DNA of 64,000 bases from Acidobacteriota bacterium (GTDB lineage: Bacteria > Acidobacteriota > Blastocatellia > Pyrinomonadales > Pyrinomonadaceae). The notes below the pieces were generated by a model that did no database searches, was not told where the DNA came from, and saw nothing but the letters and a program-made list of their open reading frames with translations. A program made the translations under genes and the position numbers. Positions 21,382 to 34,602 of the stretch are shown here, in pieces (positions within the stretch are counted from its first letter, which is position 1; each line of letters starts with the position of its first letter). The stretch is taken from assembly GCA_031409875.1 (NCBI GenBank), contig JANNYB010000133.1, positions 4,765-68,764 on the forward strand. The letters run 5' to 3'.

Positions 21382-22368
21382 TTAGCTTGCCGTTTTTTTT
21401 TCCGCCGTTTCATTAACGTAAGTCAGCCACGGCGCGTTGTTTGGTGCGGCGCGTCTGCCGTGAATTACGTCGAAGTAAACGTCTTGCAATTGTTTGGTGA
21501 TTTCGCCGCGTTTGCCTGAACCGACGGTGATGCGGTCAACCGAACGAATTGGCGTGATTTCGGCGGCTGTTCCGGTGAAAAACAGTTCATCTGCCAAGTA
21601 TAAAGCGGCGCGTTGAACTGTCGTTTCGATGACTTCGATCCCGAGTTCACGGGCAATAGCAATAACCGAATCGCGTGTAATCCCGGGCAAAATCGAAGCT
21701 CCAAGCGGAGGCGTGATAAGTTTGCCGTTGTTGACCAAAAACAAATTTTCGCCCGAACCTTCGGAAACCATTCCGCGATCATCGAGCGCAATTCCTTCGC
21801 TGAAACCGCCGAGAATCGCTTCCATTTTGATAAGTTGCGAATTCATATAATTCGCGCCGGCTTTGGCAACTGCGGGCAGGGAATTCGATGTAATGCGCGT
21901 CCAACTTGAAACGCAAACATCAACTCCGGCTTCGAGTGCTTCTTCGCCGAGATATTTGCCCCAATCCCACGCGGCAATGTAACAATCAACCGGATTCGGG
22001 AACGGATTTACGCCGAACGCGGGTTTGTCTTCGTTCAATCCGCGAAAAATGACGGGGCGCACATAACATTCATCCATTCCGCCGCCGCGAACGAGTTCAA
22101 CTGCCGCATCGCAAATAGTTTGGCGGTCAAATTTGACATCCATTCGATAAACTTTCGCTGAATTTAAGAGTCGCTGGATATGTTCGGTCAAGCGAAAAAC
22201 CGCCGTTCCGTTCTCCGTGTTGTAGGCGCGGATTCCCTCGAAAACGCTCGAACCGTAATGAATCGCGTGCGTCATAACGTGAACGCGGGCGTTGTCCCAA
22301 TCAATAAACTCACCGTTGCGCCAAACTTTCGACGCAATTTTCATCGTGTTGACATCTGTTGTTGACAT
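21382..22368 (-). CDS. ilvE: branched-chain amino acid aminotransferase
   Basis: 328 aa. HAIHYGSSVFEGIRAY, EGSGENLFLV, LPGITRDSVI: fold-type IV PLP enzyme pattern. Confidence 0.9.
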   Translation of the reverse strand: MSTTDVNTMKIASKVWRNGEFIDWDNARVHVMTHAIHYGSSVFEGIRAYNTENGTAVFRLTEHIQRLLNSAKVYRMDVKFDRQTICDAAVELVRGGGMDECYVRPVIFRGLNEDKPAFGVNPFPNPVDCYIAAWDWGKYLGEEALEAGVDVCVSSWTRITSNSLPAVAKAGANYMNSQLIKMEAILGGFSEGIALDDRGMVSEGSGENLFLVNNGKLITPPLGASILPGITRDSVIAIARELGIEVIETTVQRAALYLADELFFTGTAAEITPIRSVDRITVGSGKRGEITKQLQDVYFDVIHGRRAAPNNAPWLTYVNETAEKKTAS

Positions 22369-22573: not shown

Positions 22574-25159
22574 CTATAAAATCCGCAATCGCGGCGCGGT
22601 GTCGTCAAGACGACTGTTATAAGTTACGCCGTTGACAGTTGTCGAAATGACAATCGGTTGATCGCCCGCGCCGTTCAGTTCCTTAGGAAGAGTGAAATCG
22701 AGCGTAAATTCCCCCGGTGCAATCAGCGTTGCGTTTGAAACGATAAGCTGACTTCCGCTAATAGTTCGGTCGCCGATTCGGATTGAAAAATCTGTGTTCA
22801 GCAAACTTTGAACGCCCGTTAAATGAACGCGCAAAATTGTTGCTACACGCCTTCCGCCGCGCCGTTTGATGGTCGTAACGGTGAACGGTTCACTGTTTAG
22901 AAACGGCGAGTTTGTCGCGTTGAAAATCCGCGCTCGTCCACCGGCTCCGGGCGTTGAAAGATTCGTAAAAATGTCAGGGCGCGAAGGCACGATGGTAATT
23001 TTGCCTTTGATTATCGTGCCGTTGTTGTTGATGACGACATCATAAATCGAATTATTAGTCGTGCCGTTAATGGTTAAACCCATCGGCACAACGAAAACGA
23101 TTTGACGTTGGCTGACGCGCTTCAAACCGCAAGCCGCGCCGTTAATTGTCATTGAAACGCCGCTCAGTTCAATCGGAAGCGTGAACGCACGTTCGAGCGA
23201 ACCGACAGCTTCGCGGGCGACAATCGGCTCATTGATACCTGTCTGATAATCGAGAATTACCAGCGAACCGGGCGAAGTTCCTTGCACGGCTGGCGGCGTT
23301 ATCGGAGTCGGCGTGGCAATCGGAGTCGCACTCGGACTCGGCGTTGGAGTCGGTGTCGGTGTCGGTGTCGGGCTTGGAGTCGGCACGGGCGAAGCCGTAA
23401 CCGGAATGCGGCTTGCGCCTGTCGCAAAACTGAATGTTGCCGGAGTTTGCGCGGTTGCCACCGGAGTTAAAAGATAAAAAACTTCCGACAATAAATCAAA
23501 ATTTCCCGTTCCCGTCTCGGTCAAAGCCAAATTAAAAGCCATTCGACGGAACGAATTAGACGTTAAAGGCTGAACGGACGGAAGCAAACTTATGGGCGAA
23601 GGAAATTTTGACAGCCGCGTAAAAGTTGCCGCCATCGGCGAAACATTCAGCGGATACGAATAAATTTGCGGCGGACGGGTTACATTCGGATTTAAGCCGT
23701 CGTCGGCAGTTGCCGGAATCGTGCCGTCGGCTTTGATATTCATACGGGTTTCCAAAACGAGCGTGTTCGGCGCACCGTTTGCATCCGTATCGGTAAAGCC
23801 CGGATAGCGGAAAACGTCGCCGCCCGTGGCTCCCGAATCCGCTGTGCTACGAAGTCCGATGCGGCGGAAATTTCCGGTCGCTAAAGTTGTGTCGTAGAGA
23901 TAAGTTGCAAAACTCGTCTGATTTGCCGGCGAAGTGTTTTCCAAATCAACAAACGAATCAAAAGCGATATAACGCCCGTCGCGGCTCATTCTTCTGCCAT
24001 AATTCAGCACGTTCAAAACGTCGCCGGGAACTGTTCGCACGGTTGACGTAACTTGTTTTTTCGTCGCCGTCAACGTGCCGACAGGATCAATGTCGGCGTA
24101 GAAAACTTCGGCGTTTTTGTCGCTGTTCGTGCCGCCGGTCATTAAATGAATCGGGTTATCGGCGTTGCTTTCAAAAAGTATACGATGATTGCCGGTCGGT
24201 AATTTTGAAATCGTCGGGTTGCGGTTTTTAATCGGTGCCGAAATCGTTCCGCGCGGCGTTTTAGTGATTTGCGAAACAGTCGAAGACGAACGAATAAAAG
24301 TAAAAATTTCGGCGTTGTCTTCTGCCGGAAAAGCATTGCCGACTGCCGTAACTAAATCGCGGTTTGAACCAAAGGCGATAACGCTGCCGTCGTCGTTAAT
24401 ACTTGCGTCGTGGTTGTCGTCGGCAATAAACGGGAATTGTTCCGTGCTTCCGGCAAGCGGCAAACTACTCGGAAACGTATTTGTCGCGCGGGTAAAAGTT
24501 CCTTGCGTCAAATCTGTTAGCGCGAGTTCGTCGCCAAACGAAAGATTGACGGGCGAAACCAGCGGAATTTGATAAAACCACATTTCGGTATTGCCGTCGT
24601 TGACCAAATTGCTGGTAACGGTCATTCCCGAAGTGATATTACAGGGAAAAGTCGTTGCCGTCGTATTCGGGTCGAAACTTCCCGGATTTGTCGTGCTGAT
24701 AATCGGCGGAAGATTCGGCGTTACCGTCGTATTTCCCGGAAAAGCACAAGTCGCGTTTGAACCGAAAGCAATCCAGCGTCCGTCGTTGCTGATAACGGGA
24801 CGAATACTGACAATATCAACTTTGATGTTATCGAAGGTTGGCGCATTTGCCGCATTGTTCAAAAGACTTTTTGTGTCGGTGATTTGAAAAATGCGGCGTT
24901 GCGCGTAATCGAAAAGAAATATCTCACGATTACCGTCGGCGTTGTTGCGCGTCGTTTTGTCGGTGGCAAGATTGCCCGACGATTCAAAAACGACAAAACG
25001 CCCGTCGCCGCTGATGCCTCCGGCGAAAACTTCATATTCAGCGGATGACGAAACTTGACCGATAATCGAATCAACCTGCGCCGAAACGCTTGAAAACACG
25101 CTGAATACAACTAAAATTGCGAATAAAAATAAATTGTGAAATTTCACAAACTCCTCCAA
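22574..25159 (-). CDS. secreted PD40/TolB-like beta-propeller protein with PT-rich linker and C-terminal Ig-like domain
   Basis: 861 aa with signal peptide. Recurrent blades GDGRFVVFES, NDGRWIAFGS, DDGSVIAFGS, RDGRYIAFDS. Linker SPVPTPSPTPTPTPTPTPSPS. The C-terminal ~230 aa resemble, from memory, the Solibacter-type uncharacterised C-terminal domain. Confidence 0.85.
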   Translation of the reverse strand: MEEFVKFHNLFLFAILVVFSVFSSVSAQVDSIIGQVSSSAEYEVFAGGISGDGRFVVFESSGNLATDKTTRNNADGNREIFLFDYAQRRIFQITDTKSLLNNAANAPTFDNIKVDIVSIRPVISNDGRWIAFGSNATCAFPGNTTVTPNLPPIISTTNPGSFDPNTTATTFPCNITSGMTVTSNLVNDGNTEMWFYQIPLVSPVNLSFGDELALTDLTQGTFTRATNTFPSSLPLAGSTEQFPFIADDNHDASINDDGSVIAFGSNRDLVTAVGNAFPAEDNAEIFTFIRSSSTVSQITKTPRGTISAPIKNRNPTISKLPTGNHRILFESNADNPIHLMTGGTNSDKNAEVFYADIDPVGTLTATKKQVTSTVRTVPGDVLNVLNYGRRMSRDGRYIAFDSFVDLENTSPANQTSFATYLYDTTLATGNFRRIGLRSTADSGATGGDVFRYPGFTDTDANGAPNTLVLETRMNIKADGTIPATADDGLNPNVTRPPQIYSYPLNVSPMAATFTRLSKFPSPISLLPSVQPLTSNSFRRMAFNLALTETGTGNFDLLSEVFYLLTPVATAQTPATFSFATGASRIPVTASPVPTPSPTPTPTPTPTPSPSATPIATPTPITPPAVQGTSPGSLVILDYQTGINEPIVAREAVGSLERAFTLPIELSGVSMTINGAACGLKRVSQRQIVFVVPMGLTINGTTNNSIYDVVINNNGTIIKGKITIVPSRPDIFTNLSTPGAGGRARIFNATNSPFLNSEPFTVTTIKRRGGRRVATILRVHLTGVQSLLNTDFSIRIGDRTISGSQLIVSNATLIAPGEFTLDFTLPKELNGAGDQPIVISTTVNGVTYNSRLDDTAPRLRIL

Positions 25160-25402
25160 AAAACTTTAACGAAAGTAGAAAATAAAAAGGAAAATCCGGT
25201 ATTTTGAGCCGGTCTAAATAAAAAATTGTAACATTATTTCCCGAACATATTACTTAATGCACAAAGTATTGCATTTTAAAGGTAAAAAATGCCTGTTGCA
25301 AGCAAGTAGCGAATTTAATTTTTAAATTAGTCCGAAAAACATCTGGTTTGATGCACGGAAAGCGCGAAAAAGTTGTTTGTAAAGCAGTGCTTATTTTAGT
25401 GT

Positions 25403-25563
25403 TTCGGGCGCGTTCAGAGTTCAAACTTCAGTTTGTAACCGCCAGCGAAGCGAAGCGGTTTTCGCTCAACGGGAGAGATTTACTCGAAATATTGTAACGC
25501 CAATCCGCGACCGCGTAGTGCAACGCGGAGCAAACTAAAGTTTGAACTCTGAACGCGCCCGAA
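25403..25563. repeat. 161-bp nested palindrome
   Basis: TTCGGGCGCGTTCAGAGTTCAAACTTCAGTTTG .. CAAACTAAAGTTTGAACTCTGAACGCGCCCGAA. The inner module CCGCCAGCGAAGCGAAGCGGTT is identical to that of the 19658-19796 element. Confidence 0.85.
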
Positions 25564-25700
25564 AAAAAATATTGACTTTATTGAGCGATAGGAATAAGGT
25601 TTTAATATCCGAAAATTTCGTCAAACAGAATTAACTTTGAATGTTTTTTAACAGCAATCATTTTTAGTCCAGAAACAAAAATCACTTTAACCATATTTTA

Positions 25701-25706
25701 AGGAGA
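25701..25706 (+). promoter_or_regulatory. Shine-Dalgarno AGGAGA for the ATG at 25713
   Basis: AGGAGAAAAATTATG; the spacing is consistent with a functional RBS. Confidence 0.7.
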
Positions 25707-25712
25707 AAAATT

Positions 25713-25808
25713 ATGCCTTTAATTAACCCTAAGTTGTTTGCACTTTTAATTGGAATTGATAAATATTCGCAAGTTAGGCATTTCGTGTATGTTGAGGTTT
25801 ACAAATGA
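25713..25808 (+). pseudogene. detached 5' end of the caspase gene, now a 31-codon leader ORF
   Basis: Below the ORF-track size cutoff. MPLINPKLFALLIGIDKYS is the canonical first strand of peptidase C14 domains. It is followed by unrelated QVRHFVYVEVYK and a stop that overlaps (ATGA) the start of the next ORF. Confidence 0.7.
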
Positions 25809-26611
25809 AGAAACCTGATAAATTCCAAGCCGGAGTCCTTTGCACAGTTGGCGCAGCGATATTCTGCTTGGCATTAGCTAAAGAACCGATTTCCAAATTT
25901 ATTATACTTCCAGATTTCATATATAGTATCGCGTTCGTGATTGGAACTTTAATGATACTTTGGGGATTTTTGGGTTGGTTTGCATCGGTTTTAACACCAC
26001 CAGCAAACAGGGTTCTTGAAATTGTTCATAAGAAACTTAATGCTAAATATATATGCGTTTTTGCCACGCAAGACGATTTACCTCAACTTTATGATTTATA
26101 TTCAGAGTTTTTCGATGATGAAGTGCCTTCACTAAACCTTATGAAGTCTTGGGTGCGTCAGAATCGTAAGGCGTTCGCTCTAGTTTATAGAGTTGATAAT
26201 TCCTCAATAAAGCAGAAGGAACAGGTTCTTGCTGGCTCATTCAAAGTGCTTCCAATTACTCAGGAGGCAGTTCAGGGTTTGGAATCTGAACAACTTAGCG
26301 GTTCAACATTTGAGGCTAAACATATCGCTCGTAATCAAAAGGACGCTGCTGCTTACTATGTAGGCGATGTTGTAGCAACGAGACGCTCTGCACGCGCTTT
26401 CATTCTCGCATCCTTAAACTTTGCTTGTGAAAACGCGCTCCGAAAAGGACTTCCAATTTACGCAAGACCATTAACCGAAGATGGAAAGCGCGTAATGACA
26501 AAGTATAATTTTGTTCAAGCGAACGATGGTAAGTCGCCGCCTCAAATTGGAAAAATATGTAAGCTGATGGTAGGTGCTGTTAAATTTTTAAAGGGAAGAT
26601 CTCAAAATTAA
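25805..26611 (+). CDS. membrane-anchored (2 TM) protein with GNAT-acetyltransferase-like C-terminal domain (tentative)
   Basis: 268 aa. TM helices VLCTVGAAIFCLALA and IAFVIGTLMILWGFLGWFASVL. The alpha/beta region YICVFATQDDLPQLYDLY..KAFALVYRV..VLAGSFKVLPI..YYVGDVVATRRSARA..LPIYARPLTEDGKRVMTKYNF has a GNAT-like pattern. Codon style differs from the flanks. Confidence 0.6.
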   Translation: MKKPDKFQAGVLCTVGAAIFCLALAKEPISKFIILPDFIYSIAFVIGTLMILWGFLGWFASVLTPPANRVLEIVHKKLNAKYICVFATQDDLPQLYDLYSEFFDDEVPSLNLMKSWVRQNRKAFALVYRVDNSSIKQKEQVLAGSFKVLPITQEAVQGLESEQLSGSTFEAKHIARNQKDAAAYYVGDVVATRRSARAFILASLNFACENALRKGLPIYARPLTEDGKRVMTKYNFVQANDGKSPPQIGKICKLMVGAVKFLKGRSQN

Positions 26612-26688
26612 GATTAAACTCGTAGTGGAAAAACGCCTAACAATTCAATGGACGTGAGGGCGAAACAGCGACTTTCTTAAAACGGTCT

Positions 26689-29600
26689 TTGGTTTTCCTT
26701 ACGCTGCGTGTATTCGTTTTCGCCCACGTCATCTCAACCGTTCGTTTGCCCGACGGAAGTTATTATCCGAATCTCGGCGGTTGCGTGCGCGATGTTAATT
26801 TGGTTGAACAGATGCTGAAAAATCGTCTGAATCTGCCGGACGCACAAATTATCAAATTGCTTTCCGAAAATAATAATCCGACCGTAACCGCCGAACGTAT
26901 TCCGAATTACGAAAACCTCGTCAAAGCGTTCAAAGAAATAACCGATTCAGCCGAAGCGGACGACCAAATTTACATTCATTATTCGGGACACGGCGGACGT
27001 TCGACGACGATTTTCCCTGAAATCAAAGGTCAAAACGGTTTGGACGAATCGCTCGTGCCGTGCGACATCGGCGCAAACGGCGTTTGTTATTTCCGCGATT
27101 TGGAAATAAGTTTCTTGCTCAAAAAAATGTCGGACAAAGGCATTTTGGTAACTTTGGTGTTCGACAGTTGTCATTCGGGCGGCGCAACTCGCGGCGAAGG
27201 CGGCGCGTTTGCCAGAGGAATTGACAGTATTGATACGCGAAAACAGACGCAAGAAAGTTTGGTTTTCAAAAATATTGATGTCAAAGCCGCTTTTGCAGAA
27301 TTTCCGCCGTCGGCGACTCGAAATTTGAATTCCGCGCAAGGTTGGCGTTTGCCGATTCCGCCGAATCTGGTTTTTATTTCGGGTTGCCGTGCGAATGAAT
27401 TGGCGAATGAATTCGCGTTTGACGGTTTGCAGAGAAACGGCGCATTGACTTATTGGCTACTCGATTCCCTGCGGCAAGCGGACGAAAATTTCACTTATAA
27501 AATGCTCTACAATCGCGTTTCCGCGAAAGTTCACGCCAAATTTATCAATCAAACGCCGGTCATTGAAGGCGACCGCGACCGCATTGTTTTTGGCGGCTTG
27601 AAATTATCTTCGGGCGAAAGTATCAATGTTACCAAAGTTGATTTGCCGAACAATCGAATTACGCTCAACACGGGACTTTTTCAAGGCGTTTCCAAAGGCG
27701 CACAATTTGCCGTGTTTTCAGCGGAAACCGTTGATTTTACTGATGTTTCAAAGCGTCTTGTCATCGTTGAAATCGAAAACGTCGGCACGACCGAATCAAC
27801 CGCTTTGATAGTTTCGGGCGACGCGAAAGATAAAATTCAGGAAGGTTCGCAAGCGGTTCTGCTCGGTGTCGGGATTCGTCTGCGCGGGCGGATTCGGCTT
27901 GTTTTTCAAGCGAATGGGTTTGACGAAGATTTGAAAAAATTAGGCAATTTTATTGCTCGAAACGAAGGCGATTTAGAAGCGCGAGATAAATGGATTCGGC
28001 TTTGCAACGACGGCGAAGAAGCCGATTTTCAAGTTGCCGTAAATAAATTCGGCGAGTTTGAAATCTGGGACGCAGAAGGCAGAGTTTTGCCGAATTTGCG
28101 TCCGGCTTTGCGCGTTGAAAAAGCAGAATCTTTAGCAAAAATGCAGGAAAGATTGGTGCAGTTGACGAAATATCGAAACGTCCGTTTGATTGATAATACC
28201 GATCCGGCTTCGCCTTTGGCTAACAAACTTAAAGCCGAATTGATGATTGTCAAAACAGATAAAAAGGAGGTGGAAACAACTCATTTGTTGCCCGTTCCGC
28301 TTCGTCCGCTTTCGGTTGGCGAACGCGCTTGTTTGCGCGTTACGAATCTTTCAAACACGCCTTTGAACTTTGTGATTATGGATTTAGCACCTGATTGGGG
28401 AATTTCGCAAATTCATCCTGACCCGAACGCGCAAGACTTCGATTTTTTGGACAGCGGCGCGACTTTCGACTTTAAAATGGATGCTTTTTTGCCTTCGGAT
28501 GATTACCAATCGGGAACTGATATTTTAAAAGTTTTCGCCACGGTTGAAGGCACAAGTTTTCGTTGGTTGCAAATGTCGCCGCTCGATCAACCGCCGATGC
28601 CGATTCAGCGAAGCGGTGAAATTAATGATGATTTGGAACAACTTTTGACAGGTTTTAACGCCGAAACTATGCGGAATATGAAACCCGTAACCAATTTAAA
28701 TTCGCCGAAAGGCAGAAGTTGGACGACTGCCGAAGTTGCCGTAACCGTGCGCCGTCCGTCAATCGCGCACGTTACCGATCCGGCACTTTCGCTGCTTCAA
28801 TCGGCGGTTGAAGAATTGGTTTTGAGCAAAAATGCCGAAACGAAATCACGCAGTGTCAACGGCAAAGAATATAAATATTTGCGCCCCGAATTGGACAATC
28901 AAATAATCAAAGAAGTCGCTCAATATTGCATTGCGCTGAATGAAAATCGAGTTACTGAAACCGAATTAATAACAAAAGATTCAACGGCTTACAGCGATGC
29001 TCAGGAACGCGGCGCATTCGATACGATAAATTATTGTGCAGGTTTGACAGCAGGTTTGGCGAAAGAATGGTTTAAAGCAAAACTTTGGGGCGATGATGCC
29101 GAATATAACCGAATCAAAGAATCTTTGACCGTAAAATTCGGCGGTTGCGATCCGAATTTTAAGGATACGGCAATTCTTTATTTGAAATATCTCAAAGAAG
29201 GCGGACACACGCCTTATCGAACTGCGAATAATCCGACGGATTTTGTGGTTGACGGGCGTTTGGCGGAAGATGCGACAATCGGAATCGTCGCGGATTGGGC
29301 AACGGGCGAACCGGCGGCGTTGGAAGTTTTGCGCCAGATGAAAAATCTTAACCCGAATGTTGCTATACATTTAGGCGATATTTATTATGCCGGAACGGAA
29401 CTCGAAGTCGAAAATTATTTTTATCAACCTTGGAAAAATATTCTTCGACTCGAAACTTCGGAAATCATTTCGTTCGCTTTGCCCGGAAATCACGATCTTT
29501 ATGCCGGCGGCAAACCTTTTTATGATTTGCTGGACAAATTGCAGATTTTGAATAAGTTTGACGGCAAAATGGCGAGTTATTTTTGTCTGCGAAACAAATA

Positions 29601-30138
29601 TTGGCAATTTATCGGATTGGACACGGCTCTGCACGACAGATTGGGCGCAGGTCCGACTTATCTCGAACCTCAGGAACTCGAATGGTTTAAAGACAAAATC
29701 GAAAATGCCGACGGCAGAAAAACCGTTTTGCTTTCGCATCATCAATTATTTTCGGCAAACGACCAATGGAAGGATGAAAAAGACGATGGGAATAATAAGG
29801 AATATAACCCGAAACTTTTTGATAAACTCGCTCCGATACTGGAAAAAGTTGATTTATGGCTTTGGGGACACGAACACGATTTGGTTATTTTTGATGAATT
29901 TCTAAAACTAAAACGCGGACGCTGTATCGGCGGAAGTGCTTTTCCCGTAGGCAATTACGAAATGCCGACAACGGTCAAAAATCCGAATGTTACGTTTAAC
30001 AAAGAAGTCGCACTCAGCAAAGGAAGCGTTTTTTATCAGCATTGCTACACGATGATTAAACTCAATGGCGAAAACGCCGTCGTTTCCTATTACGAAGACC
30101 GCGACGGCGGCAGATTGCTTTTTGAGGAAACGATTTAA
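26689..30138 (+). CDS. caspase-like peptidase C14 / metallophosphoesterase fusion protein (5' end displaced; start uncertain)
   Basis: C14 dyad IYIHYSGHG (His codon 26989-26991) and VFDSCHSGG (Cys codon 27169-27171). C-terminal purple-acid-phosphatase-like motifs VADWATG, GDIYYAG, LPGNHD, LLSHHQ, WGHEHD. The frame is open only from 26641, with TTG 26689 as the only start candidate before the domain. Confidence 0.85.
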   Translation: MVFLTLRVFVFAHVISTVRLPDGSYYPNLGGCVRDVNLVEQMLKNRLNLPDAQIIKLLSENNNPTVTAERIPNYENLVKAFKEITDSAEADDQIYIHYSGHGGRSTTIFPEIKGQNGLDESLVPCDIGANGVCYFRDLEISFLLKKMSDKGILVTLVFDSCHSGGATRGEGGAFARGIDSIDTRKQTQESLVFKNIDVKAAFAEFPPSATRNLNSAQGWRLPIPPNLVFISGCRANELANEFAFDGLQRNGALTYWLLDSLRQADENFTYKMLYNRVSAKVHAKFINQTPVIEGDRDRIVFGGLKLSSGESINVTKVDLPNNRITLNTGLFQGVSKGAQFAVFSAETVDFTDVSKRLVIVEIENVGTTESTALIVSGDAKDKIQEGSQAVLLGVGIRLRGRIRLVFQANGFDEDLKKLGNFIARNEGDLEARDKWIRLCNDGEEADFQVAVNKFGEFEIWDAEGRVLPNLRPALRVEKAESLAKMQERLVQLTKYRNVRLIDNTDPASPLANKLKAELMIVKTDKKEVETTHLLPVPLRPLSVGERACLRVTNLSNTPLNFVIMDLAPDWGISQIHPDPNAQDFDFLDSGATFDFKMDAFLPSDDYQSGTDILKVFATVEGTSFRWLQMSPLDQPPMPIQRSGEINDDLEQLLTGFNAETMRNMKPVTNLNSPKGRSWTTAEVAVTVRRPSIAHVTDPALSLLQSAVEELVLSKNAETKSRSVNGKEYKYLRPELDNQIIKEVAQYCIALNENRVTETELITKDSTAYSDAQERGAFDTINYCAGLTAGLAKEWFKAKLWGDDAEYNRIKESLTVKFGGCDPNFKDTAILYLKYLKEGGHTPYRTANNPTDFVVDGRLAEDATIGIVADWATGEPAALEVLRQMKNLNPNVAIHLGDIYYAGTELEVENYFYQPWKNILRLETSEIISFALPGNHDLYAGGKPFYDLLDKLQILNKFDGKMASYFCLRNKYWQFIGLDTALHDRLGAGPTYLEPQELEWFKDKIENADGRKTVLLSHHQLFSANDQWKDEKDDGNNKEYNPKLFDKLAPILEKVDLWLWGHEHDLVIFDEFLKLKRGRCIGGSAFPVGNYEMPTTVKNPNVTFNKEVALSKGSVFYQHCYTMIKLNGENAVVSYYEDRDGGRLLFEETI

Positions 30139-30177
30139 AAAGTCGTTGCAACTTTGCTTTAAAATCGGAGGTCGCTA

Positions 30178-32328
30178 ATGCCTGATTATGAAGATTTCAA
30201 AATAGTTATCAACAGCACCGATAATCTAACTTTCACGGTTGATGTCATCAAACCTTGCGGCGGAAATGTCGGCGACGCTCACGGCGTTTTTAATTTTGAC
30301 GAAATCAAATCAATTTCCGACGCTTTCGATAATTTGGCTGATGCGCCGCCGCTTGCCGAACGCAATTTCAAACCTGTTGCCAACAATAATAAAGAACTGA
30401 CTCTGAACTATCACAAACCGCTTTCAAACCTCAAAGCCGAAGAATTAGGCGCGAATCTTTCGGACGTTTTGTTCAAAGATGACGTGCGCGAGATTTTGGG
30501 CAGATGTAAAGAATATTGTGAAGCAAATCAAGCGATTTTAAGAATCAGATTAGATTTATCGCGCGTTCCGAAACTCGCGGAATTGCCTTGGGAATATCTT
30601 CGCAACACCGAAGATGATAATTTTTTGTGTTTGGACGAAGACACGACTTTGGTTCGATATTTACAAACCGCCGATGCTGTTCGTCCGCTCAAAGCCGTGT
30701 TGCCTTTGCGGATTTTGGTGATGGCTTCCACGCCGCAAAATCTGCCCGCGTTGGCGAAAAATGACGAGATAAACAAAATCAAAGTCGCTCTAGCCGAAAT
30801 TTTTAACGATGCAATTGAAATCGTCGTTTTGGAAAAGCCGACGGTTAAAGCTCTGCAAACAGCTCTGAAACAAGCAAAAGACAAGGAAATGCCGTTTCAT
30901 ATTTTTCATTTTATCGGTCACGGCGCGTTCGATGCGGAAAAAGACAGAGGCGTTTTGCTTTTTGAAGACGACGCAAAAAACAGCGTTGCCGTTGACCACG
31001 AAGATTTGGGCAGATGGCTTCAGCCTTATCGAAATAATTTGCGTCTTGTCGTGCTGAATGCTTGCGAAGGCGCGAAGGTTGCGGCAGACGATACTTATTC
31101 GAGCGTTGCTGCAAGATTGATGCAAACTGCTGAAATACCTGCGGTTATCGCAATGCAATACAGCATTAAGGACACAGCGGCGATTGAATTTTCAAAATCG
31201 TTTTACGAAGAAATCTCGAAAGGAAATTATCTCGAAGGCGCAATTCAAACGGCGCGAAAAGCTATAAACGATTTGAATTTACCAACCGAAGAGTGGGCAA
31301 CTCCTGTTTTTTATCTGCGGGCTGAAAGCGGACATTTGTTCGACATCAGAATTCCGACACCGCCTGAAAATTTGGTCAGATTTGGACATTTTACGACTTT
31401 AAAAACTGTGCTTCCGACTTGTAATCTTGTAATTTTCATCGGTTTGGATGTTAATGTTTCAAACCGACCGTATTTTAGTTCGTGGCAACCGAATCGAGGT
31501 TTGCCGAACGCCGCCGAACTCTGTTCTTACATCAGCCAAAGCCAAAGTATCAATCCGCCGATTACTTCTTTAGCTTCTTTGGCGAAAAAACTTCAAGTAA
31601 CAAGTCAGCTTAATCCCGACGCAATGGCTTTGCTGTTTTCGCCGCCGCCGCAGCCGATTAAACTTTATCGGATTTGGGCAGAAATTGCGCGTCAAATTAC
31701 CGATAATTTGCCGGAAACGATTGTTGATCCGCTTCATTGTTCGTTGCTTTTTGTAACGACGACTTACGATTTTTCGTTGGAAAAATCTTTTTCTGCGGCG
31801 GGAATTACAAAATACAACACGATTTGCTATAACCGTTCGACAAACGGAAATTGGATTTTTTCGCATAATTATTTTGAAAACGGAAGTTTGATTTTCAAAA
31901 ATGATTTAATCGCGCCCGAATATACGCCGAACGAATACAAAAAATTGGGCAATAAATATCCGATTATTTTAAAGTTGCCGGGCGAAATTACTTCGGATTT
32001 GAATTATGCGATTACCGAAGATGACTTTTTTGCTTTTGCCAATAAAAGTTTGTCCGAACTTTTGCCCGCCGATTTGCTCGGACAAATAAACACCAGCCGA
32101 CATCTTTATTTGGGCTACGATTTGCAAAATTGGACGCTTCGTTTGCTTTTGAACAGAATTTGCGAAAATCAAAGTCCGCCGAAGAAAAAAACTTCTTGCG
32201 CCGTAATTTTTGATGAAAACGATGATCCGAATGTGGATTTTTGGAAGGAACAAAATGTTTTGCTCGCGCCGGCGAATTTGGAAGATTATGTTGCCGGTTT
32301 GGAAAAATTTGTCTTGAATCAAATGTAA
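30178..32328 (+). CDS. CHAT protease domain / SIR2_2-like domain fusion protein
   Basis: RBS GGAGG. LRIRLDL..LAELPWEYLRN, FHFIGHG (His 30919-30921), VVLNACEG (Cys 31063-31065). C-terminal VIFIGLDVN, VTTTYDFSLEKSF, ILKLPGE..AITEDDFFAF and LYLGYDLQNWTLRLLL follow the SIR2_2 motif order, but the canonical Asn and His positions are substituted. Confidence 0.85.
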   Translation: MPDYEDFKIVINSTDNLTFTVDVIKPCGGNVGDAHGVFNFDEIKSISDAFDNLADAPPLAERNFKPVANNNKELTLNYHKPLSNLKAEELGANLSDVLFKDDVREILGRCKEYCEANQAILRIRLDLSRVPKLAELPWEYLRNTEDDNFLCLDEDTTLVRYLQTADAVRPLKAVLPLRILVMASTPQNLPALAKNDEINKIKVALAEIFNDAIEIVVLEKPTVKALQTALKQAKDKEMPFHIFHFIGHGAFDAEKDRGVLLFEDDAKNSVAVDHEDLGRWLQPYRNNLRLVVLNACEGAKVAADDTYSSVAARLMQTAEIPAVIAMQYSIKDTAAIEFSKSFYEEISKGNYLEGAIQTARKAINDLNLPTEEWATPVFYLRAESGHLFDIRIPTPPENLVRFGHFTTLKTVLPTCNLVIFIGLDVNVSNRPYFSSWQPNRGLPNAAELCSYISQSQSINPPITSLASLAKKLQVTSQLNPDAMALLFSPPPQPIKLYRIWAEIARQITDNLPETIVDPLHCSLLFVTTTYDFSLEKSFSAAGITKYNTICYNRSTNGNWIFSHNYFENGSLIFKNDLIAPEYTPNEYKKLGNKYPIILKLPGEITSDLNYAITEDDFFAFANKSLSELLPADLLGQINTSRHLYLGYDLQNWTLRLLLNRICENQSPPKKKTSCAVIFDENDDPNVDFWKEQNVLLAPANLEDYVAGLEKFVLNQM

Positions 32329-32343
32329 AAAGTAGAAAAAAAG

Positions 32344-34602
32344 ATGAAAAAAACTGAAAAACCAAACGAAAATTTTTCTCCGTATGTCGGTTTAATTCCG
32401 TTTTCGGAAAAAGATGCCGCGTATTTTTTCGGGCGCGATTCGGACGGCGAAATTATAGCAACAAATCTTCGCGCCACGGCTTTGACGGTTTTTTACGGCG
32501 CAAGCGGTGTCGGGAAAAGTTCGCTTTTGAATGCGCGGGTCATTCCTTACTTGAAAAAAATCGCCGTTTCTTCAAATTTACCCGACGAACCGCCCGAATT
32601 TATTTTGGTTGTTTTGCGCGAATGGGCGAATAATCCTTTGGAAAGTTTGCGTTTGCGACTCAAGGAAGCGGTTGCGGAAACCGTCAAAAAAGTAAAAATT
32701 CCGAAGCCGAATCTGCAATCGCCCGAAGCACAGATAGCTCAAAAAACAATTGAATATCTCGATGAAAAAGATGTCGAACAAACGGCAAATGTTTTGAAAA
32801 ATAACCACGATATTTGCGATTTGCTGAAAAACTGGGCTGATTTGACGGGAACGATTTTTTTAATAATCTTTGACCAATTTGAAGACATTTTTTTGCATCC
32901 CGAATTTCTCGCGGGTGAAAATTCATTTGGCGATGAATTTGCTAAAACATTGAATTGCAAAGATTTACCCGCGAATTTTATGATTTCGATGCGCGACGAT
33001 GCGTTGGCGAAAATGGATATTTTCAAAGGCAAAGTGCCGAATATGATGAAAAATATTCTGCGCCTTTTGCATCTTGACCGCGCCGCGACCGAAATCGCCA
33101 TTCGCGCACCGCTTATCGAATACAACAAAGAATTCGGCACGAATTTTACGATTGAAAAGGAACTTGTCGAAACGCTTTTGAACGATCTTCAAGTTGATAA
33201 AATTAAGTTTGAAACGCAAGGTCAAGCAGATTGCGCTCCTGAAAAAACGAGCATTGATAACGCTTATCGCGTCGAAACTCCTTATTTGCAGTTAGTTATG
33301 AAGCGGCTTTGGGAAAATCCGCTGACGCAAGAATCTCAAAAACTCCAACTTTCAACGCTTATCGGCACGGAAACCGATCAACTCGGCGGCGTGCAAAACA
33401 TCGTCGAAACGCACCTCGACAAAGTGATGGAACAATTCAGCGAAGACGAAAAACATCTTGCCGCTAAATTTATTCATTTCACCGTTACGCGCGGCGGCAC
33501 GAAAATTCCTTCCGATGTGAATGATTTGGCTGATTGGGCGGAATTGACCGACGACAAAAAATCGAACATCGAAAAAATCCGAAACATTCTTGACAAACTT
33601 TGCGAAGGCGAAAATCGAATCTTCAAAAAAGTAAATAACCGCAAAGACTCGAAAAATCCGTATTACGAAGTTTCCCACGACGCACTCGGACCGGCAATCA
33701 TAAGTTGGCGCAAACGCCAAAACGAAAGCCGTCTGAAAACCGAAAATGACCGCAAAATGCAAGCCGAAGTAGAAAAAGCGGTAAAAGAGAAAGAGGAACA
33801 AGAACAAAAATTACAAGAAGAACAAAGTTCTCGCTTAATGCAAGAACATCTTCTTGTTTTACAAAAACGCTATAATTTTCTCGGCAAAGTTATTTGGGGA
33901 GCGAGCATTGTTTTTCTAATTGGCGCAGTAGGAATTTATTATTATTGGTGGGTTTGGTCATACAAAGATTATATTAAAAAAGCTGAAGATGACCAAAAAA
34001 GGTATGCAAATTTATACGATTCACAGTTAAATGAATATAAATCGTTAATCAATATCTTGTTTAACCTTCAATCAAACGAACCGTCAAAAATAACTTCGGC
34101 TCTCGATAATTTGCAAAAAGAAACTGAGAATAATGATTTGCCCGACGAATACAAAGATGAAATAACGAAAGTTTTGAATAAGATTGAAAATAAAACTGAG
34201 GATGAAAAAGAAAAAGAAAAAATTAAAACGATTATCAAAAATCCGCAGTTGCAAACTAAGGCTCAAAAATCAGTTGAAAATGTTTTAATATTTGTTCAAT
34301 ACGCAAATGATAATCAAGAAACTGCCGTCAATCAATGGCGAATTTTTCTAAAGGGAAGCGGATATATTGCGCCACCATTAGATAAGGTGGGAGATAAAGC
34401 ACCGCCACAAAATGAACTCCGTTATTTTCGTAAAAGAGATGAGAAACAAGCTACAAGTATTATTCAATTATTGGGTTCAAAAGGGTTAAAAGTGGATGCG
34501 AAGTTAATTAGCGGTTATGAAGATTCGCCATTAATCAAAGAAAATCAATTTGAATTATGGTTCAATGAAAATATTCCGAATGCTCCCGTAACGGCAAAAT
34601 AA
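32344..34602 (+). CDS. STAND/NLR-like P-loop NTPase with coiled coil, one TM helix and an unassigned C-terminal domain
   Basis: PYVGLIPFSEKDAAYFFGRD..VFYGASGVGKSSLLNA (Lys codon 32515-32517), Walker B IFLIIFDQFED. Coiled coil ~aa 455-500, TM VIWGASIVFLIGAVGIYYYWWVW, K/E/N-rich segment. The C-terminal ~110 aa (IFVQYANDNQE..LRYFRKRDEKQATSIIQLL..) are unassigned. Confidence 0.85.
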   Translation: MKKTEKPNENFSPYVGLIPFSEKDAAYFFGRDSDGEIIATNLRATALTVFYGASGVGKSSLLNARVIPYLKKIAVSSNLPDEPPEFILVVLREWANNPLESLRLRLKEAVAETVKKVKIPKPNLQSPEAQIAQKTIEYLDEKDVEQTANVLKNNHDICDLLKNWADLTGTIFLIIFDQFEDIFLHPEFLAGENSFGDEFAKTLNCKDLPANFMISMRDDALAKMDIFKGKVPNMMKNILRLLHLDRAATEIAIRAPLIEYNKEFGTNFTIEKELVETLLNDLQVDKIKFETQGQADCAPEKTSIDNAYRVETPYLQLVMKRLWENPLTQESQKLQLSTLIGTETDQLGGVQNIVETHLDKVMEQFSEDEKHLAAKFIHFTVTRGGTKIPSDVNDLADWAELTDDKKSNIEKIRNILDKLCEGENRIFKKVNNRKDSKNPYYEVSHDALGPAIISWRKRQNESRLKTENDRKMQAEVEKAVKEKEEQEQKLQEEQSSRLMQEHLLVLQKRYNFLGKVIWGASIVFLIGAVGIYYYWWVWSYKDYIKKAEDDQKRYANLYDSQLNEYKSLINILFNLQSNEPSKITSALDNLQKETENNDLPDEYKDEITKVLNKIENKTEDEKEKEKIKTIIKNPQLQTKAQKSVENVLIFVQYANDNQETAVNQWRIFLKGSGYIAPPLDKVGDKAPPQNELRYFRKRDEKQATSIIQLLGSKGLKVDAKLISGYEDSPLIKENQFELWFNENIPNAPVTAK

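What the first reader, a model, noticed from the sequence alone, without database searches (positions are those of the whole stretch)
25713..26745. Caspase gene decapitated by a ~0.95-kb cassette; its original RBS/start now drives a 31-codon leader coupled to a TM-GNAT-like gene
Seen: RBS AGGAGA plus ATG 25713 opens MPLINPKLFALLIGIDKYS, the canonical first strand of a C14 domain. It then diverges and stops at 25806-25808, overlapping (ATGA) the start of a 268-aa ORF with 2 TM helices and an acetyltransferase-like region. The caspase domain resumes only at ~26743 (RLPDGSYYPNLGGCVRDVNLVEQML). That frame is open from 26641 and has no ATG/GTG ahead of the domain, only TTG 26689. TATTCG occurs at both junctions (25764-25769 and 26711-26716). 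An inverted repeat GACGTGAGGGCGAAA / TTTCGCCCACGTC (26651-26665 / 26718-30) sits at the right junction. The insert has a different codon style from its flanks. Inference: a foreign gene cassette inserted into the 5' end of the first gene of the putative defence operon. It may inactivate that gene, re-wire its expression, or represent an anti-defence or hitch-hiking gene. Caveat: joining at the TATTCG repeats leaves the two caspase parts 1 nt out of frame, so simple excision does not restore the gene.
Basis: partly seen in the sequence, partly recalled or inferred. Interest (0 to 1): 0.62.

Follow-up and report, generated by a model that had tools for sequence, protein, structure and literature searches.

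The report
Integron cassette inserted inside a caspase gene
A 967-bp integron gene cassette, carrying a membrane-anchored acetyltransferase-like gene and its attC recombination site, has inserted at a stray GTT inside the start of a caspase-like defence gene in an uncultured soil or sediment acidobacterium; this beheads the gene, and it is a clean natural example of a process that is already known.

Summary
More than 40 orthologues (Pyrinomonadaceae) begin M..LFALLIGIDKYSQ(V/T)xLPDGSYYP. In the window this N-terminus is split between a 31-codon ORF (25713-25808) and the ORF that starts at TTG 26689.

The junctions are not the TATTCG repeats. They are CAAG|TTAGGC (25773|25774) and CAACCG|TTCGTTTG (26740|26741). 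Removing 25774-26740 (967 nt) restores the gene exactly in frame.

The insert is an integron gene cassette:
- It has one ORF with its own GAGG ribosome-binding site.
- It ends in a 112-nt attC site (26635-26746). R'' (GCCTAAC) is the exact reverse complement of the left junction GTTAGGC.
- A covariance model built from 19 attC sites of other acidobacterial loci scores the site at 96.8 bits. The next best hit in the window scores 14 bits.
- The same attC family forms cassette arrays in those genomes, one of them next to an integron integrase (TIGR02249, 453 bits).
- The ORF's closest homologue (64% identity) lies in such an array.

No other attC and no integrase-sized recombinase lies in the 64 kb. 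It is therefore an isolated cassette (SALIN), inserted by attC x genome-site (attG, 5'-GWT-3') recombination, a mechanism described in 1994-95 and in 2023.

The ORF has a GNAT fold behind two transmembrane helices. This is a new member of a known kind and is moderately interesting.

The parts
25713..25773 (+). Original 5' end of the caspase-metallophosphoesterase gene: RBS AGGAGA just upstream, ATG, codons 1-20 and the first base of codon 21 (MPLINPKLFALLIGIDKYSQ + G of Val). It encodes the first beta-strand of the C14 domain.
   Evidence: It is collinear with the orthologue start in L007 and with more than 40 orthologous N-termini. Adding it back extends the Pfam C14 match to profile position 3.
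25713..25808 (+). Chimeric 31-codon leader ORF: 21 native codons, then 10 codons read from the cassette's 5' UTR. Its TGA overlaps the cassette ATG (ATGA).
   Evidence: read directly from the sequence.
25773..25779 (+). Left junction GTTAGGC. The G comes from the target and TTAGGC from the cassette. It matches the integron core site GTTRRRY and is the exact reverse complement of R'' GCCTAAC.
   Evidence: The covariance-model consensus for R' is GUUaggc.
25774..26740 (+). Inserted integron gene cassette, 967 nt (TTAGGC ... CAACCG).
   Evidence: The empty site in orthologue L007 reads CGCAAGTTCCGCTGCC. Deleting 25774-26740 gives an in-frame MPLINPKLFALLIGIDKYSQVRLPDGSYYPNLGGC.
25805..26611 (+). 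Cassette ORF of 268 aa: two N-terminal transmembrane helices plus a GNAT-fold domain. Its own Shine-Dalgarno GAGG lies at 25793-25796, 8 nt (25797-25804) before the ATG.
   Evidence: AlphaFold2 mean pLDDT 81. All top Foldseek PDB hits are GNAT acetyltransferases. It has 17 homologues and no Pfam, NCBIfam or PADLOC family. The closest homologue, P0002, lies in a cassette array.
26635..26746 (+). attC site. R'' GCCTAAC 26635-41; spacer 26642-47; L'' arm 26648-65 with bulged G26650, A26657 and one extra G; variable loop 26666-26717; L' arm 26718-32; spacer 26733-39; R' G|TT 26740-42 followed by target-derived CGTT.
   Evidence: Covariance model R1, built without the window, scores it 96.8 bits (E 1e-22) over the full length. 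The next best hit in the window scores 14 bits. The hairpin folds in both the integrated and the circularised form. The structure covaries in the family.
26741..30138 (+). Remainder of the Peptidase_C14 + Metallophos gene (codon 21 position 2 onward). It has no frameshift or stop, and the catalytic motifs HYSGHGG and DSCHSGG are present. It now lacks its RBS, its start and beta-strand 1.
30178..34602 (+). Downstream operon genes: CHAT + SIR2_2 protein (30178-32328) and nSTAND1 NTPase (32344-34602). The same genes follow the intact orthologue in L008.
   Evidence: Pfam, PADLOC caspase and SAVED_CHAT hits, and L008 synteny.

Best explanation
**What it is.** The 967-bp segment 25774-26740 is an integron gene cassette sitting outside any integron. 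It is a single attC site lacking an integron integrase (SALIN).

**How it got there (inferred).**
- An integron integrase of the Pyrinomonadaceae type excised the cassette as a circle.
- It recombined the folded bottom strand of the cassette's attC with a double-stranded genomic site (attG, 5'-G|TT-3').
- That site lay in codon 21 of the caspase-like gene heading a C14-Metallophos / CHAT-SIR2 / nSTAND1 conflict operon.
- The crossover between G and TT places TTAGGC...ORF...attC...G between the target's G and TT.

**Consequences (inferred).**
- The promoterless cassette is now transcribed from the operon's promoter. It is translated from its own GAGG site, possibly helped by ribosomes that terminate at the ATGA overlap of the 31-codon leader.
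- The caspase gene has lost its RBS, its start codon and its first beta-strand, so it is most probably inactive.
- The insertion is conservative, so integrase-mediated excision at the same points would restore the gene exactly.

**Shown versus inferred.** Shown here: the anatomy, the empty site in orthologues, membership of the attC family, integrase-linked arrays of that family, and the GNAT fold. Inferred: the recombination event, expression, loss of caspase function and reversibility.
For: - **Intact orthologues.** Of the 46 closest homologues whose N-termini were read (52-90% identity; P0019-P0063, P0109), all but P0052 carry an uninterrupted N-terminus, and P0052 proved intact at the DNA level. 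L007 DNA shows the empty site CAAGTTCCG. P0052's short N-terminus is only a start-call artefact.
- **In-frame removal.** Deleting 25774-26740 restores ...DKYSQVRLPDGSYY in frame. It also extends the Pfam C14 match from profile position 18 to 3.
- **Junction sequences.** The left junction GTTAGGC fits GTTRRRY and is the reverse complement of R'' GCCTAAC at 26635. That R'' lies 24 nt after the ORF's stop.
- **The attC family.** The pattern scan found it in 25 genome loci, mostly Pyrinomonadaceae MAGs.
- **Covarying structure.** The 19-site alignment has a covarying stem: 95.5% of cells paired, 8 pairs with double changes, 0 of 500 shuffles as good, and 30-47% paired when the partners are slid. 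It also has an invariant bulged A.
- **Model score.** Model R1, trained without the window, scores the window site 96.8 bits over its full length. It is the only hit in the 64 kb.
- **Arrays and integrase.** Same-strand arrays of 5-9 such sites per 8 kb occur in L014, L015, L024, L025, L031 and L034. In L025 the array abuts a divergent integron integrase (TIGR02249, 453 bits, cutoff 265).
- **The ORF's closest homologue.** P0002 (64% identity) lies in a cassette array flanked by attC sites of the same geometry (L009).
- **Support in sequencing runs.** The attC stretch is 40-130 times deeper than its flanks in the source-type metagenomes. The left junction lies inside single contigs of two independent runs and the right junction inside single contigs of three, and in the two runs that hold the cassette contig its depth equals the flank depth.
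- **Published mechanism.** Integrase inserts cassettes at 5'-GWT-3' genome sites. Inserted cassettes are expressed if they lie near a promoter and can be excised precisely. RefSeq holds 3400 SALINs (bioRxiv 10.1101/2022.09.11.507474). Secondary-site insertion has been known since Recchia et al. 1994 and 1995 (cited in PMC4889954).
Against: - No integrase or second attC lies in the window, and the rest of this genome is unseen. It is not shown that this organism has an integron.
- No empty-site allele or circular form was seen in the metagenome contigs or in JGI contigs. Mobility in this population is therefore not demonstrated.
- The window's attC has a 1-nt deletion in L', and its R' now pairs only partly with R''. 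This may reduce its ability to recombine.
- Other homologues of the ORF are ordinary chromosomal genes without an attC (L001, L010, L003).
- There are no expression data.
- The Logan contigs that meet inside the attC overlap by only 15-17 nt of repeated sequence. 'Exactly one cassette' therefore rests on the window's own assembly.
Confidence: 0.9

Rival explanations
1. Assembly artefact. The window's contig was mis-joined through the highly repeated attC sequence. Either the caspase gene is not really interrupted, or it holds more than one cassette.
For: The attC region is 40-130 times over-represented. Logan contigs break inside it, at 26664/26666 and at 26650, and overlap by only 15-17 nt.
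Against: Each junction lies inside a single contig: the left one in two independent runs (X1, X2), the right one in three (X1-X3). The contig 25438-26666 joins the caspase 5' end to the cassette. The contig starting at 26650 joins the attC 3' half to the caspase remainder. In X1 and X2 the depths match (11.7 against 12.5; 19.9 against 21.9). The interruption is therefore real; only the number of cassettes could be wrong.
Confidence: 0.04
2. A transposon, MITE or IS-like element that inserted with a 3-bp target-site duplication (GTT).
For: GTT is present at both junctions.
Against: - There are no terminal inverted repeats: TTAGGCATTTCG against the reverse complement CGGTTGAGATGA.
- There is no transposase; the only ORF has a GNAT fold.
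- The right end is a full-length attC of an integrase-associated family.
- The GTT at both ends is what a conservative crossover between two GTT-containing sites produces.
Confidence: 0.03
3. A self-splicing intron (group I or II) carrying an ORF. The caspase mRNA would then be repaired by splicing.
For: Removal of the insert is exactly in frame, and the insert carries an ORF.
Against: - An Rfam scan of 24800-27600 at E up to 5 gave no hit at all.
- Only about 160 nt are non-coding.
- The boundaries are not GUGYG...AY, nor U|...G|.
- The ORF is not a homing endonuclease, maturase or reverse transcriptase.
- The 3' structure is an attC.
Confidence: 0.01
4. A native operon architecture: a regulatory leader peptide, a TM-GNAT gene, and a caspase gene using an alternative TTG or GTG start.
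For: The ATGA coupling looks designed. The downstream ORF is intact over 1149 codons.
Against: None of about 100 homologues shows this arrangement. The intact synteny in L008 lacks it. The leader is the missing first strand of the C14 domain. No Shine-Dalgarno sequence precedes TTG 26689.
Confidence: 0.01

Closest known systems
Isolated integron cassettes (SALINs) made by attC x attG recombination (Loot et al., bioRxiv 10.1101/2022.09.11.507474), and the classical 'secondary site' insertions (Recchia et al. 1994; Recchia & Hall 1995, aadB in RSF1010)
   Same: - A single ORF plus attC, with no integrase or attI nearby.
- The target has 5'-G|TT (GWT).
- The junction is conservative and precise.
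- The cassette lies in the sense orientation downstream of a host promoter.
- Exact excision is possible in principle.
   Different: - This is a natural case in an uncultured Acidobacteriota (Pyrinomonadaceae) chromosome, not an Enterobacterial plasmid or laboratory E. coli.
- The integrase is not class 1-3.
- The target is the coding sequence of a caspase-like conflict-system gene.
- The positions to the right of the cut (TTGC) do not match the CRGM hotspot motif reported for IntI1.
Sedentary chromosomal integrons of Acidobacteria with taxon-specific attC sites (Ghaly et al. 2021, PMC8352920; mentioned in PMC9176274)
   Same: The attC belongs to a conserved family of about 112 nt. That family forms long same-strand arrays next to an integron integrase in Pyrinomonadales MAGs (L025, L015, L031).
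   Different: The window holds only one site and no integrase. It lies inside a gene, not in an array.
Gene disruption of defence systems by mobile-element insertion (IS or prophage insertions in restriction, CRISPR or abortive-infection genes)
   Same: A mobile element interrupts the first gene of a predicted immune or cell-death operon (C14-Metallophos, CHAT-SIR2, nSTAND1).
   Different: The agent is an integron cassette. It leaves no duplication or scar and could in principle be removed exactly.
GNAT (GCN5-related N-acetyltransferase) cassette genes such as aac(6') and the many acetyltransferase cassettes of Vibrio superintegrons
   Same: The predicted fold follows the GNAT order beta1-alpha1-alpha2-beta2-4-alpha3-beta5-alpha4-beta6, and there is a motif-B-like RVMTxYGF. 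Cassettes often encode acetyltransferases.
   Different: - No GNAT Pfam or NCBIfam model matches.
- There is an N-terminal two-helix membrane anchor.
- The substrate is unknown.
- The family is tiny, with 17 sequences found.

Membership tests
Integron gene cassette | An attC site at the 3' end: an imperfect palindrome R''-L''...L'-R' with the conserved AAC/GTT triplets | tested here: met
   GCCTAAC at 26635-41 and GTT at 26740-42. The L''/L' stems are 26648-65 and 26718-32. Covariance model R1 scores 96.8 bits over the full length.
Integron gene cassette | Folded-strand architecture: R box, unpaired central spacers, L box with extrahelical bases, and a variable terminal structure of 20-100 nt (Cury et al. 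2016, PMC4889954) | tested here: met
   - Spacers of 6 and 7 nt.
- Bulged G26650 and A26657. The A is invariant in all 19 family members.
- Loop of 52 nt.
- The structure covaries in the family.
Integron gene cassette | The attC type is used by an integron integrase, that is, it is found in arrays next to intI | tested here: met
   L025 has seven same-strand sites of this family, followed by a divergent ORF that hits TIGR02249 integron integrase at 453 bits (cutoff 265). This was shown in a related MAG, not in the window's genome.
Integron gene cassette | A compact unit: one promoterless ORF, a short 5' UTR beginning TTRRRY, and the ORF in the same orientation as the attC | tested here: met
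   TTAGGC, then a 31-nt UTR (25774-25804, beginning with that TTAGGC) up to ATG 25805. The attC begins 24 nt after the stop, on the same strand. No convincing promoter lies between the junction and the ATG.
Integron gene cassette | Integrase-catalysed excision and integration of this particular unit | not testable with these tools
   This needs a recombination assay. No circular form or empty allele appeared in the contig-level data.
SALIN / attC x attG (secondary-site) insertion | A single attC with no other attC, attI or intI nearby | tested here: met
   With filters off, the covariance-model search of all 64 kb gave one hit, and the next best scored 14 bits. None of the ten 279-447-aa ORFs scanned against Pfam is a tyrosine recombinase. 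The eleventh ORF in that size range (21382-22368) was not scanned; by its sequence it looks like a branched-chain aminotransferase.
SALIN / attC x attG (secondary-site) insertion | The target carries 5'-GWT-3' and the crossover falls after the G | tested here: met
   The reconstructed target is CAAG|TTCGTTTG. The orthologue has CAAGTTCCGCTG.
SALIN / attC x attG (secondary-site) insertion | The same site is uninterrupted in relatives | tested here: met
   P0063 (90% identity), P0019/L007 (82%), L008, L037 and more than 40 others are intact.
Complete integron | intI, attI and a Pc promoter adjacent to the cassette | tested here: not met
   No integrase was found in the window. The cassette is flanked on both sides by caspase coding sequence.
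Group I / group II intron | A ribozyme core recognisable by covariance model, and canonical splice boundaries | tested here: not met
   Rfam gave 0 hits at E up to 5 in 24800-27600. The boundaries do not fit.
GNAT acetyltransferase (the cassette ORF) | The GNAT fold | tested here: met
   AlphaFold2 mean pLDDT is 81. Of the 50 Foldseek PDB hits listed, all but a few low-probability outliers (M. tuberculosis ICL2, a pre-ribosome chain) are GNAT-type acyl/acetyltransferases; best E 2.7e-4, probability 1.0, TM about 0.45 per target.
GNAT acetyltransferase (the cassette ORF) | A sequence-profile match to a GNAT family, and acetyl-CoA binding | tested here: inconclusive
   Pfam, NCBIfam and PDB profile searches gave no GNAT hit. 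The conserved VVATTxxARG and RVMTxYGF resemble motifs A and B by eye only.
Peptidase C14 (caspase-like), the interrupted gene | A complete C14 domain with the catalytic His and Cys | tested here: not met
   His (HYSGHGG) and Cys (DSCHSGG) are present. However, the current ORF matches the profile only from position 17. The first strand is encoded 1 kb upstream in the leader.

The most novel reading that the evidence does not exclude
The cassette may act as a reversible, integrase-controlled switch on a cell-death or immune operon. Insertion would silence the caspase-like effector, and stress-induced IntI would excise the cassette scarlessly and re-arm the system. Alternatively, the TM-GNAT may itself be a counter-defence or defence-modulating gene selected at this position; homologues sit beside a type I R-M operon and an Mrr-type nuclease.
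Probability: 0.08. Interest if true: 0.7.

Novelty: new member of a known kind. Interest (0 to 1): 0.4.

Why it matters
Off-target (attG) insertion of integron cassettes was demonstrated experimentally in E. coli. For natural genomes it has been inferred mostly from counts of lone attC sites.

This locus is a natural case with base-pair resolution: the filled site, the empty site in orthologues and the donor-type attC family with its integrase are all visible. The case comes from Acidobacteriota, a phylum where integrons are little studied. It shows such an insertion knocking out a gene, the caspase-like effector of a STAND-NTPase conflict system, while placing a new gene under that operon's expression signals.

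It supports the view that integrons reshape chromosomes beyond their own arrays. It also gives a concrete substrate for testing whether such knock-outs are reversible. For annotation, the 1117/1149-aa 'caspase family protein' here should be flagged as disrupted, and the 31-codon ORF is not a gene.

Tried and rejected
- **Rfam.** A scan of 24800-27600 for introns or other RNA families found nothing.
- **TATTCG as the junction.** Rejected: it occurs 24 times in the window, and joining there is out of frame.
- **A second interrupted orthologue (P0052).** Its gene is intact at the DNA level, so the short N-terminus is only a start-call artefact. Model R1 finds no attC there.
- **An empty-site allele or joint in four metagenome runs.** None was found, but these are contig-level data that drop rare variants.
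- **The reconstructed empty site in JGI metagenome contigs.** An exact 26-mer search gave 0 hits.
- **RNA runs.** None are available.
- **An integrase in the window.** None of ten mid-size ORFs is a tyrosine recombinase.
- **Family searches for the 268-aa protein.** PADLOC, NCBIfam, Pfam and PDB sequence profiles gave no significant family.
- **attC next to other TM-GNAT homologues.** L001, L010, L003, L011 and L038 have no convincing site. The best is 23 bits in L010 on the opposite strand. The gene family is therefore not always cassette-borne.
- **Promoter and terminator scan.** The counts are no better than in shuffled sequence.


Full report
**1. The observation**

The window has the RBS AGGAGA and ATG 25713. 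This opens MPLINPKLFALLIGIDKYSQVRHFVYVEVYK and stops at 25806-25808. The stop overlaps, as ATGA, the start of a 268-aa ORF (25805-26611).

The caspase reading frame reappears as ...STVRLPDGSYYPNLGGCVRDV in an ORF that can start only at TTG 26689 and runs to 30138.

Pfam finds Peptidase_C14 and Metallophos in that ORF. The C14 match begins at profile position 17. The next two genes are a CHAT + SIR2_2 protein and an nSTAND1 NTPase. PADLOC recognises 'caspase' and 'SAVED_CHAT' profiles.

**2. Orthologues show an intact gene and define the junctions**

A search with the 1149-aa ORF found more than 1400 homologues. The closest are from Pyrinomonadaceae (Acidobacteriota). Their N-termini read, for example:
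- MPQINPKLYALLIGIDKYSQTSLPDGSYYPNLGGCVRDV (P0063, 90% identity)
- MSPVFPKLFALLIGVDKYSQVPLPDGSYYPHLGGCVRDV (P0019, 82% identity)
- ...YSQVRLPDNSYY (P0031)

The window's leader therefore supplies residues 1-21 of the native protein, and the downstream ORF continues from residue 22.

At the DNA level the orthologue L007 reads GATAAATATTCGCAAGTTCCGCTGCCAGACGG. The window reads GATAAATATTCGCAAG|TTAGGC... on the left and ...CAACCG|TTCGTTTGCCCGACGG on the right.

Deleting 25774-26740 (967 nt) yields MPLINPKLFALLIGIDKYSQVRLPDGSYYPNLGGC in frame. The reconstituted protein matches the C14 profile from position 3 and gains 8.5 bits.

Its caveat that excision would be out of frame is wrong.

One orthologue with a short N-terminus (P0052) proved to be an intact gene with a mis-called start. 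The interruption is therefore unique to this window among about 100 relatives.

**3. The insert is an integron gene cassette**

The left junction G|TTAGGC fits the integron core site GTTRRRY. Its exact reverse complement, GCCTAAC (RYYYAAC, R''), lies at 26635-26641, 24 nt after the ORF's stop.

From there to G|TT at 26740 the sequence has the anatomy of an attC site:
- R'' (26635-41)
- a 6-nt unpaired spacer
- an L'' arm (26648-65) that pairs with an L' arm (26718-32), apart from bulged bases G26650 and A26657
- a 52-nt loop
- a 7-nt spacer
- R'

Both the integrated and the circularised form (26740 joined to 25774) fold as predicted. These are the features that define attC sites in Cury et al. 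2016 (PMC4889954).

**4. Independent test of attC membership**

*Family and alignment.* A pattern covering R'' to L'' (GCCTAACAAKTCAWTSGAC) was scanned over one genome per species. It hit 25 loci, mostly Pyrinomonadaceae or Acidobacteriota MAGs. The hits continue into elements of about 112 nt that end in GTTnnnn and are strikingly like the window's site. Nineteen of them, excluding the window, were aligned (A2).

*Structure.* RNAalifold recovered the R box and the L stem. For my 21-pair structure:
- 95.5% of cells pair.
- 8 pairs show compensatory double changes.
- No shuffle out of 500 reaches the observed values.
- Sliding the partners drops pairing to 30-47%.

*Model searches.* The covariance model R1 gave these results:
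- The window site scores 96.8 bits (E about 1e-22) over all 114 model positions.
- It is the only hit in the 64-kb window, even with filters off; the next best scores 14 bits.
- In the MAG loci it finds same-strand arrays of 5-9 sites per 8 kb, spaced 0.5-1.5 kb apart (L014, L015, L024, L025, L031, L034).

*Integrase.* In L025 the array ends 575 nt from a divergent 347-aa ORF. That ORF matches TIGR02249 'integron integrase' at 453 bits (cutoff 265).

The window's site thus belongs to an attC family that serves bona fide chromosomal integrons in this lineage. Taxon-specific attC models for Acidobacteria have been published.

**5. The cargo**

The 268-aa protein has only 17 homologues in the 5.8-billion-protein collection. 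It has no Pfam, NCBIfam or PADLOC family.

Its closest homologue, P0002 (64% identity), lies on contig L009. There it is flanked by two attC sites of the same geometry (...GGCGGCGGGTTAAT TCGAGC GTTAGGC upstream; GCCTAAC AAGTC ATT-C-GACCGG-A-CGCGCC...GTTGGGC downstream). It shares its cassette with a conventional GNAT gene.

Other homologues are ordinary chromosomal genes:
- L001 and L010
- L003, which follows a type I R-M operon
- L011, which lies next to an Mrr-like nuclease

None of these has a convincing attC. The family is therefore sometimes, but not always, cassette-borne.

An AlphaFold2 model built on 14 sequences (mean pLDDT 81) shows two N-terminal transmembrane helices and an alpha/beta domain. 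The top structural matches to that domain are almost all GNAT-type acetyltransferases (best E 2.7e-4, probability 1.0). Conserved VVATTxxARG and RVMTxYGF resemble GNAT motifs A and B. This last point rests on visual comparison with textbook motifs, not on a test.

The substrate is unknown.

**6. Support from sequencing runs**

Three freshwater-sediment metagenomes hold the locus. The contig 25438-26666 (in two runs, X1 and X2) contains the left junction. The contig starting at 26650 (in all three runs) contains the right junction. In X1 and X2 their depths equal each other (11.7 against 12.5; 19.9 against 21.9).

The interruption is therefore real and appears fixed in those populations. No contig skips the cassette. 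Depth over 26566-26739 is 470-1578, which shows that this attC family is highly repeated in the community. Because the contigs meet inside that repeat, the count of exactly one cassette rests on the window's assembly.

No RNA runs were available. An exact search for the reconstructed empty site in JGI metagenome contigs found nothing.

**7. Mechanism**

*Established knowledge.* An integron integrase recombines the folded bottom strand of an attC with attI. It also does so with 'secondary' sites (Recchia et al. 1994; Recchia & Hall 1995, cited). Loot et al. showed the following (bioRxiv 10.1101/2022.09.11.507474):
- Cassettes insert genome-wide at double-stranded attG sites whose only strong requirement is 5'-GWT-3', cut after the G.
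- Inserted cassettes are expressed when they lie near a promoter.
- Inserted cassettes can be excised precisely.
- Lone attC sites (SALINs) number 3400 in RefSeq.

*This locus.* The window's target CAAG|TTCGTTTG fits that requirement. I infer that a circular TM-GNAT cassette was inserted here by attC x attG recombination. The cassette is promoterless and lies in the sense orientation. It should be transcribed from the operon promoter and translated from its own GAGG (25793-25796). The ATGA overlap with the chimeric leader may add termination-reinitiation coupling. The overlap itself is an accident of the cassette's 5' UTR sequence.

*The caspase gene.* It keeps its catalytic His and Cys motifs and has no frameshift or stop in 1127 codons. 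This points to a recent event. It has, however, lost its RBS, its ATG and the first beta-strand of the domain. TTG 26689 has no Shine-Dalgarno sequence. I therefore judge the gene to be inactive or severely impaired. This is an inference; there are no expression data.

No intrinsic terminator was detected on the + strand, so the downstream genes may still be transcribed.

**8. Rivals**

- **Intron:** there is no Rfam hit, the boundaries are wrong and too little of the insert is non-coding.
- **Transposon with a 3-bp duplication:** there are no terminal inverted repeats and no transposase, and the right end is an attC.
- **Native operon design:** the arrangement is absent from all relatives.
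- **Assembly chimera:** both junctions lie inside contigs from independent runs.

Each of these gets a probability of 4% or less.

**9. Comparison and novelty**

This works like, and qualifies as, an isolated integron cassette at a non-canonical genomic site (SALIN / attG insertion). It is not a complete integron, because no intI or attI is present. The kind is known.

New here are the phylum, the base-pair-resolved filled and empty sites, and the target, which is the caspase-like effector gene of a STAND-NTPase conflict operon.

The boldest reading not excluded is a reversible, integrase-controlled switch on an immune or cell-death system, or a functional link between the TM-GNAT and defence. 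Nothing here supports that beyond the scarless geometry and the defence-island neighbours of some homologues. I give it about 8%.

**10. Verdict**

This is a new member of a known kind, with interest of about 0.4.

Noticed in passing
window 25402-25435 and 25531-25564: A 34-nt inverted repeat, 97% complementary, with a 95-nt loop, lies upstream of the caspase operon. It is single-copy in the window. In the sediment metagenomes its arms are 5-17 times deeper than the flanks, and many contigs join the arms with different loops. It looks like a REP- or MITE-like palindromic element.
   Followed up: partly
window 43293-44771: This 492-aa ORF has GC 0.33 and GC3 0.28, against 0.43 for the window as a whole. 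It may be a foreign low-GC island.
   Followed up: no
L009 1-1647: A two-gene cassette holds a conventional GNAT gene (Acetyltransf_1, 146-649) followed 38 nt later by the TM-GNAT homologue (687-1571). The R'' of the attC lies inside the 3' end of that ORF.
   Followed up: partly
L035 5823-6703; L016 4151-4263; L032 930-1782 and 3850-3965 (chromosome OZ243957.1): These are further lone or paired attC sites of the same family, next to ordinary chromosomal genes and away from the main arrays. In L035 the left boundary is GTTGGGC, before a 239-aa HAD-like ORF. Off-array cassette insertion may be common in Pyrinomonadaceae.
   Followed up: partly
L015 3010-3341 and 5965-6056: Two attC sites lie only about 110 nt apart, which suggests an ORF-less cassette. 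One attC lies in inverted orientation inside an otherwise same-strand array.
   Followed up: no
L003 9696-10885: A TM-GNAT homologue (48% identity) directly follows a type I restriction-modification operon and a 102-aa YgjP-like gene. Its start overlaps that gene's stop (ATGA). Another homologue (L011) lies next to an Mrr_cat nuclease. This hints at an association with defence islands.
   Followed up: no
L008 13466-14361 compared with window 30138-30178: The intact orthologous operon in L008 carries two extra genes (73 aa, and a 225-aa DUF676/PGAP1-like hydrolase) between the C14-Metallophos and CHAT-SIR2 genes. They are absent from the window's operon.
   Followed up: no
window 26482-26509: A promoter-like site, TGGAAA-16-TATAAT (10 of 12), lies inside the 3' part of the cassette ORF, about 180 nt upstream of TTG 26689. 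The number of such sites in the region is no higher than in shuffled sequence.
   Followed up: no
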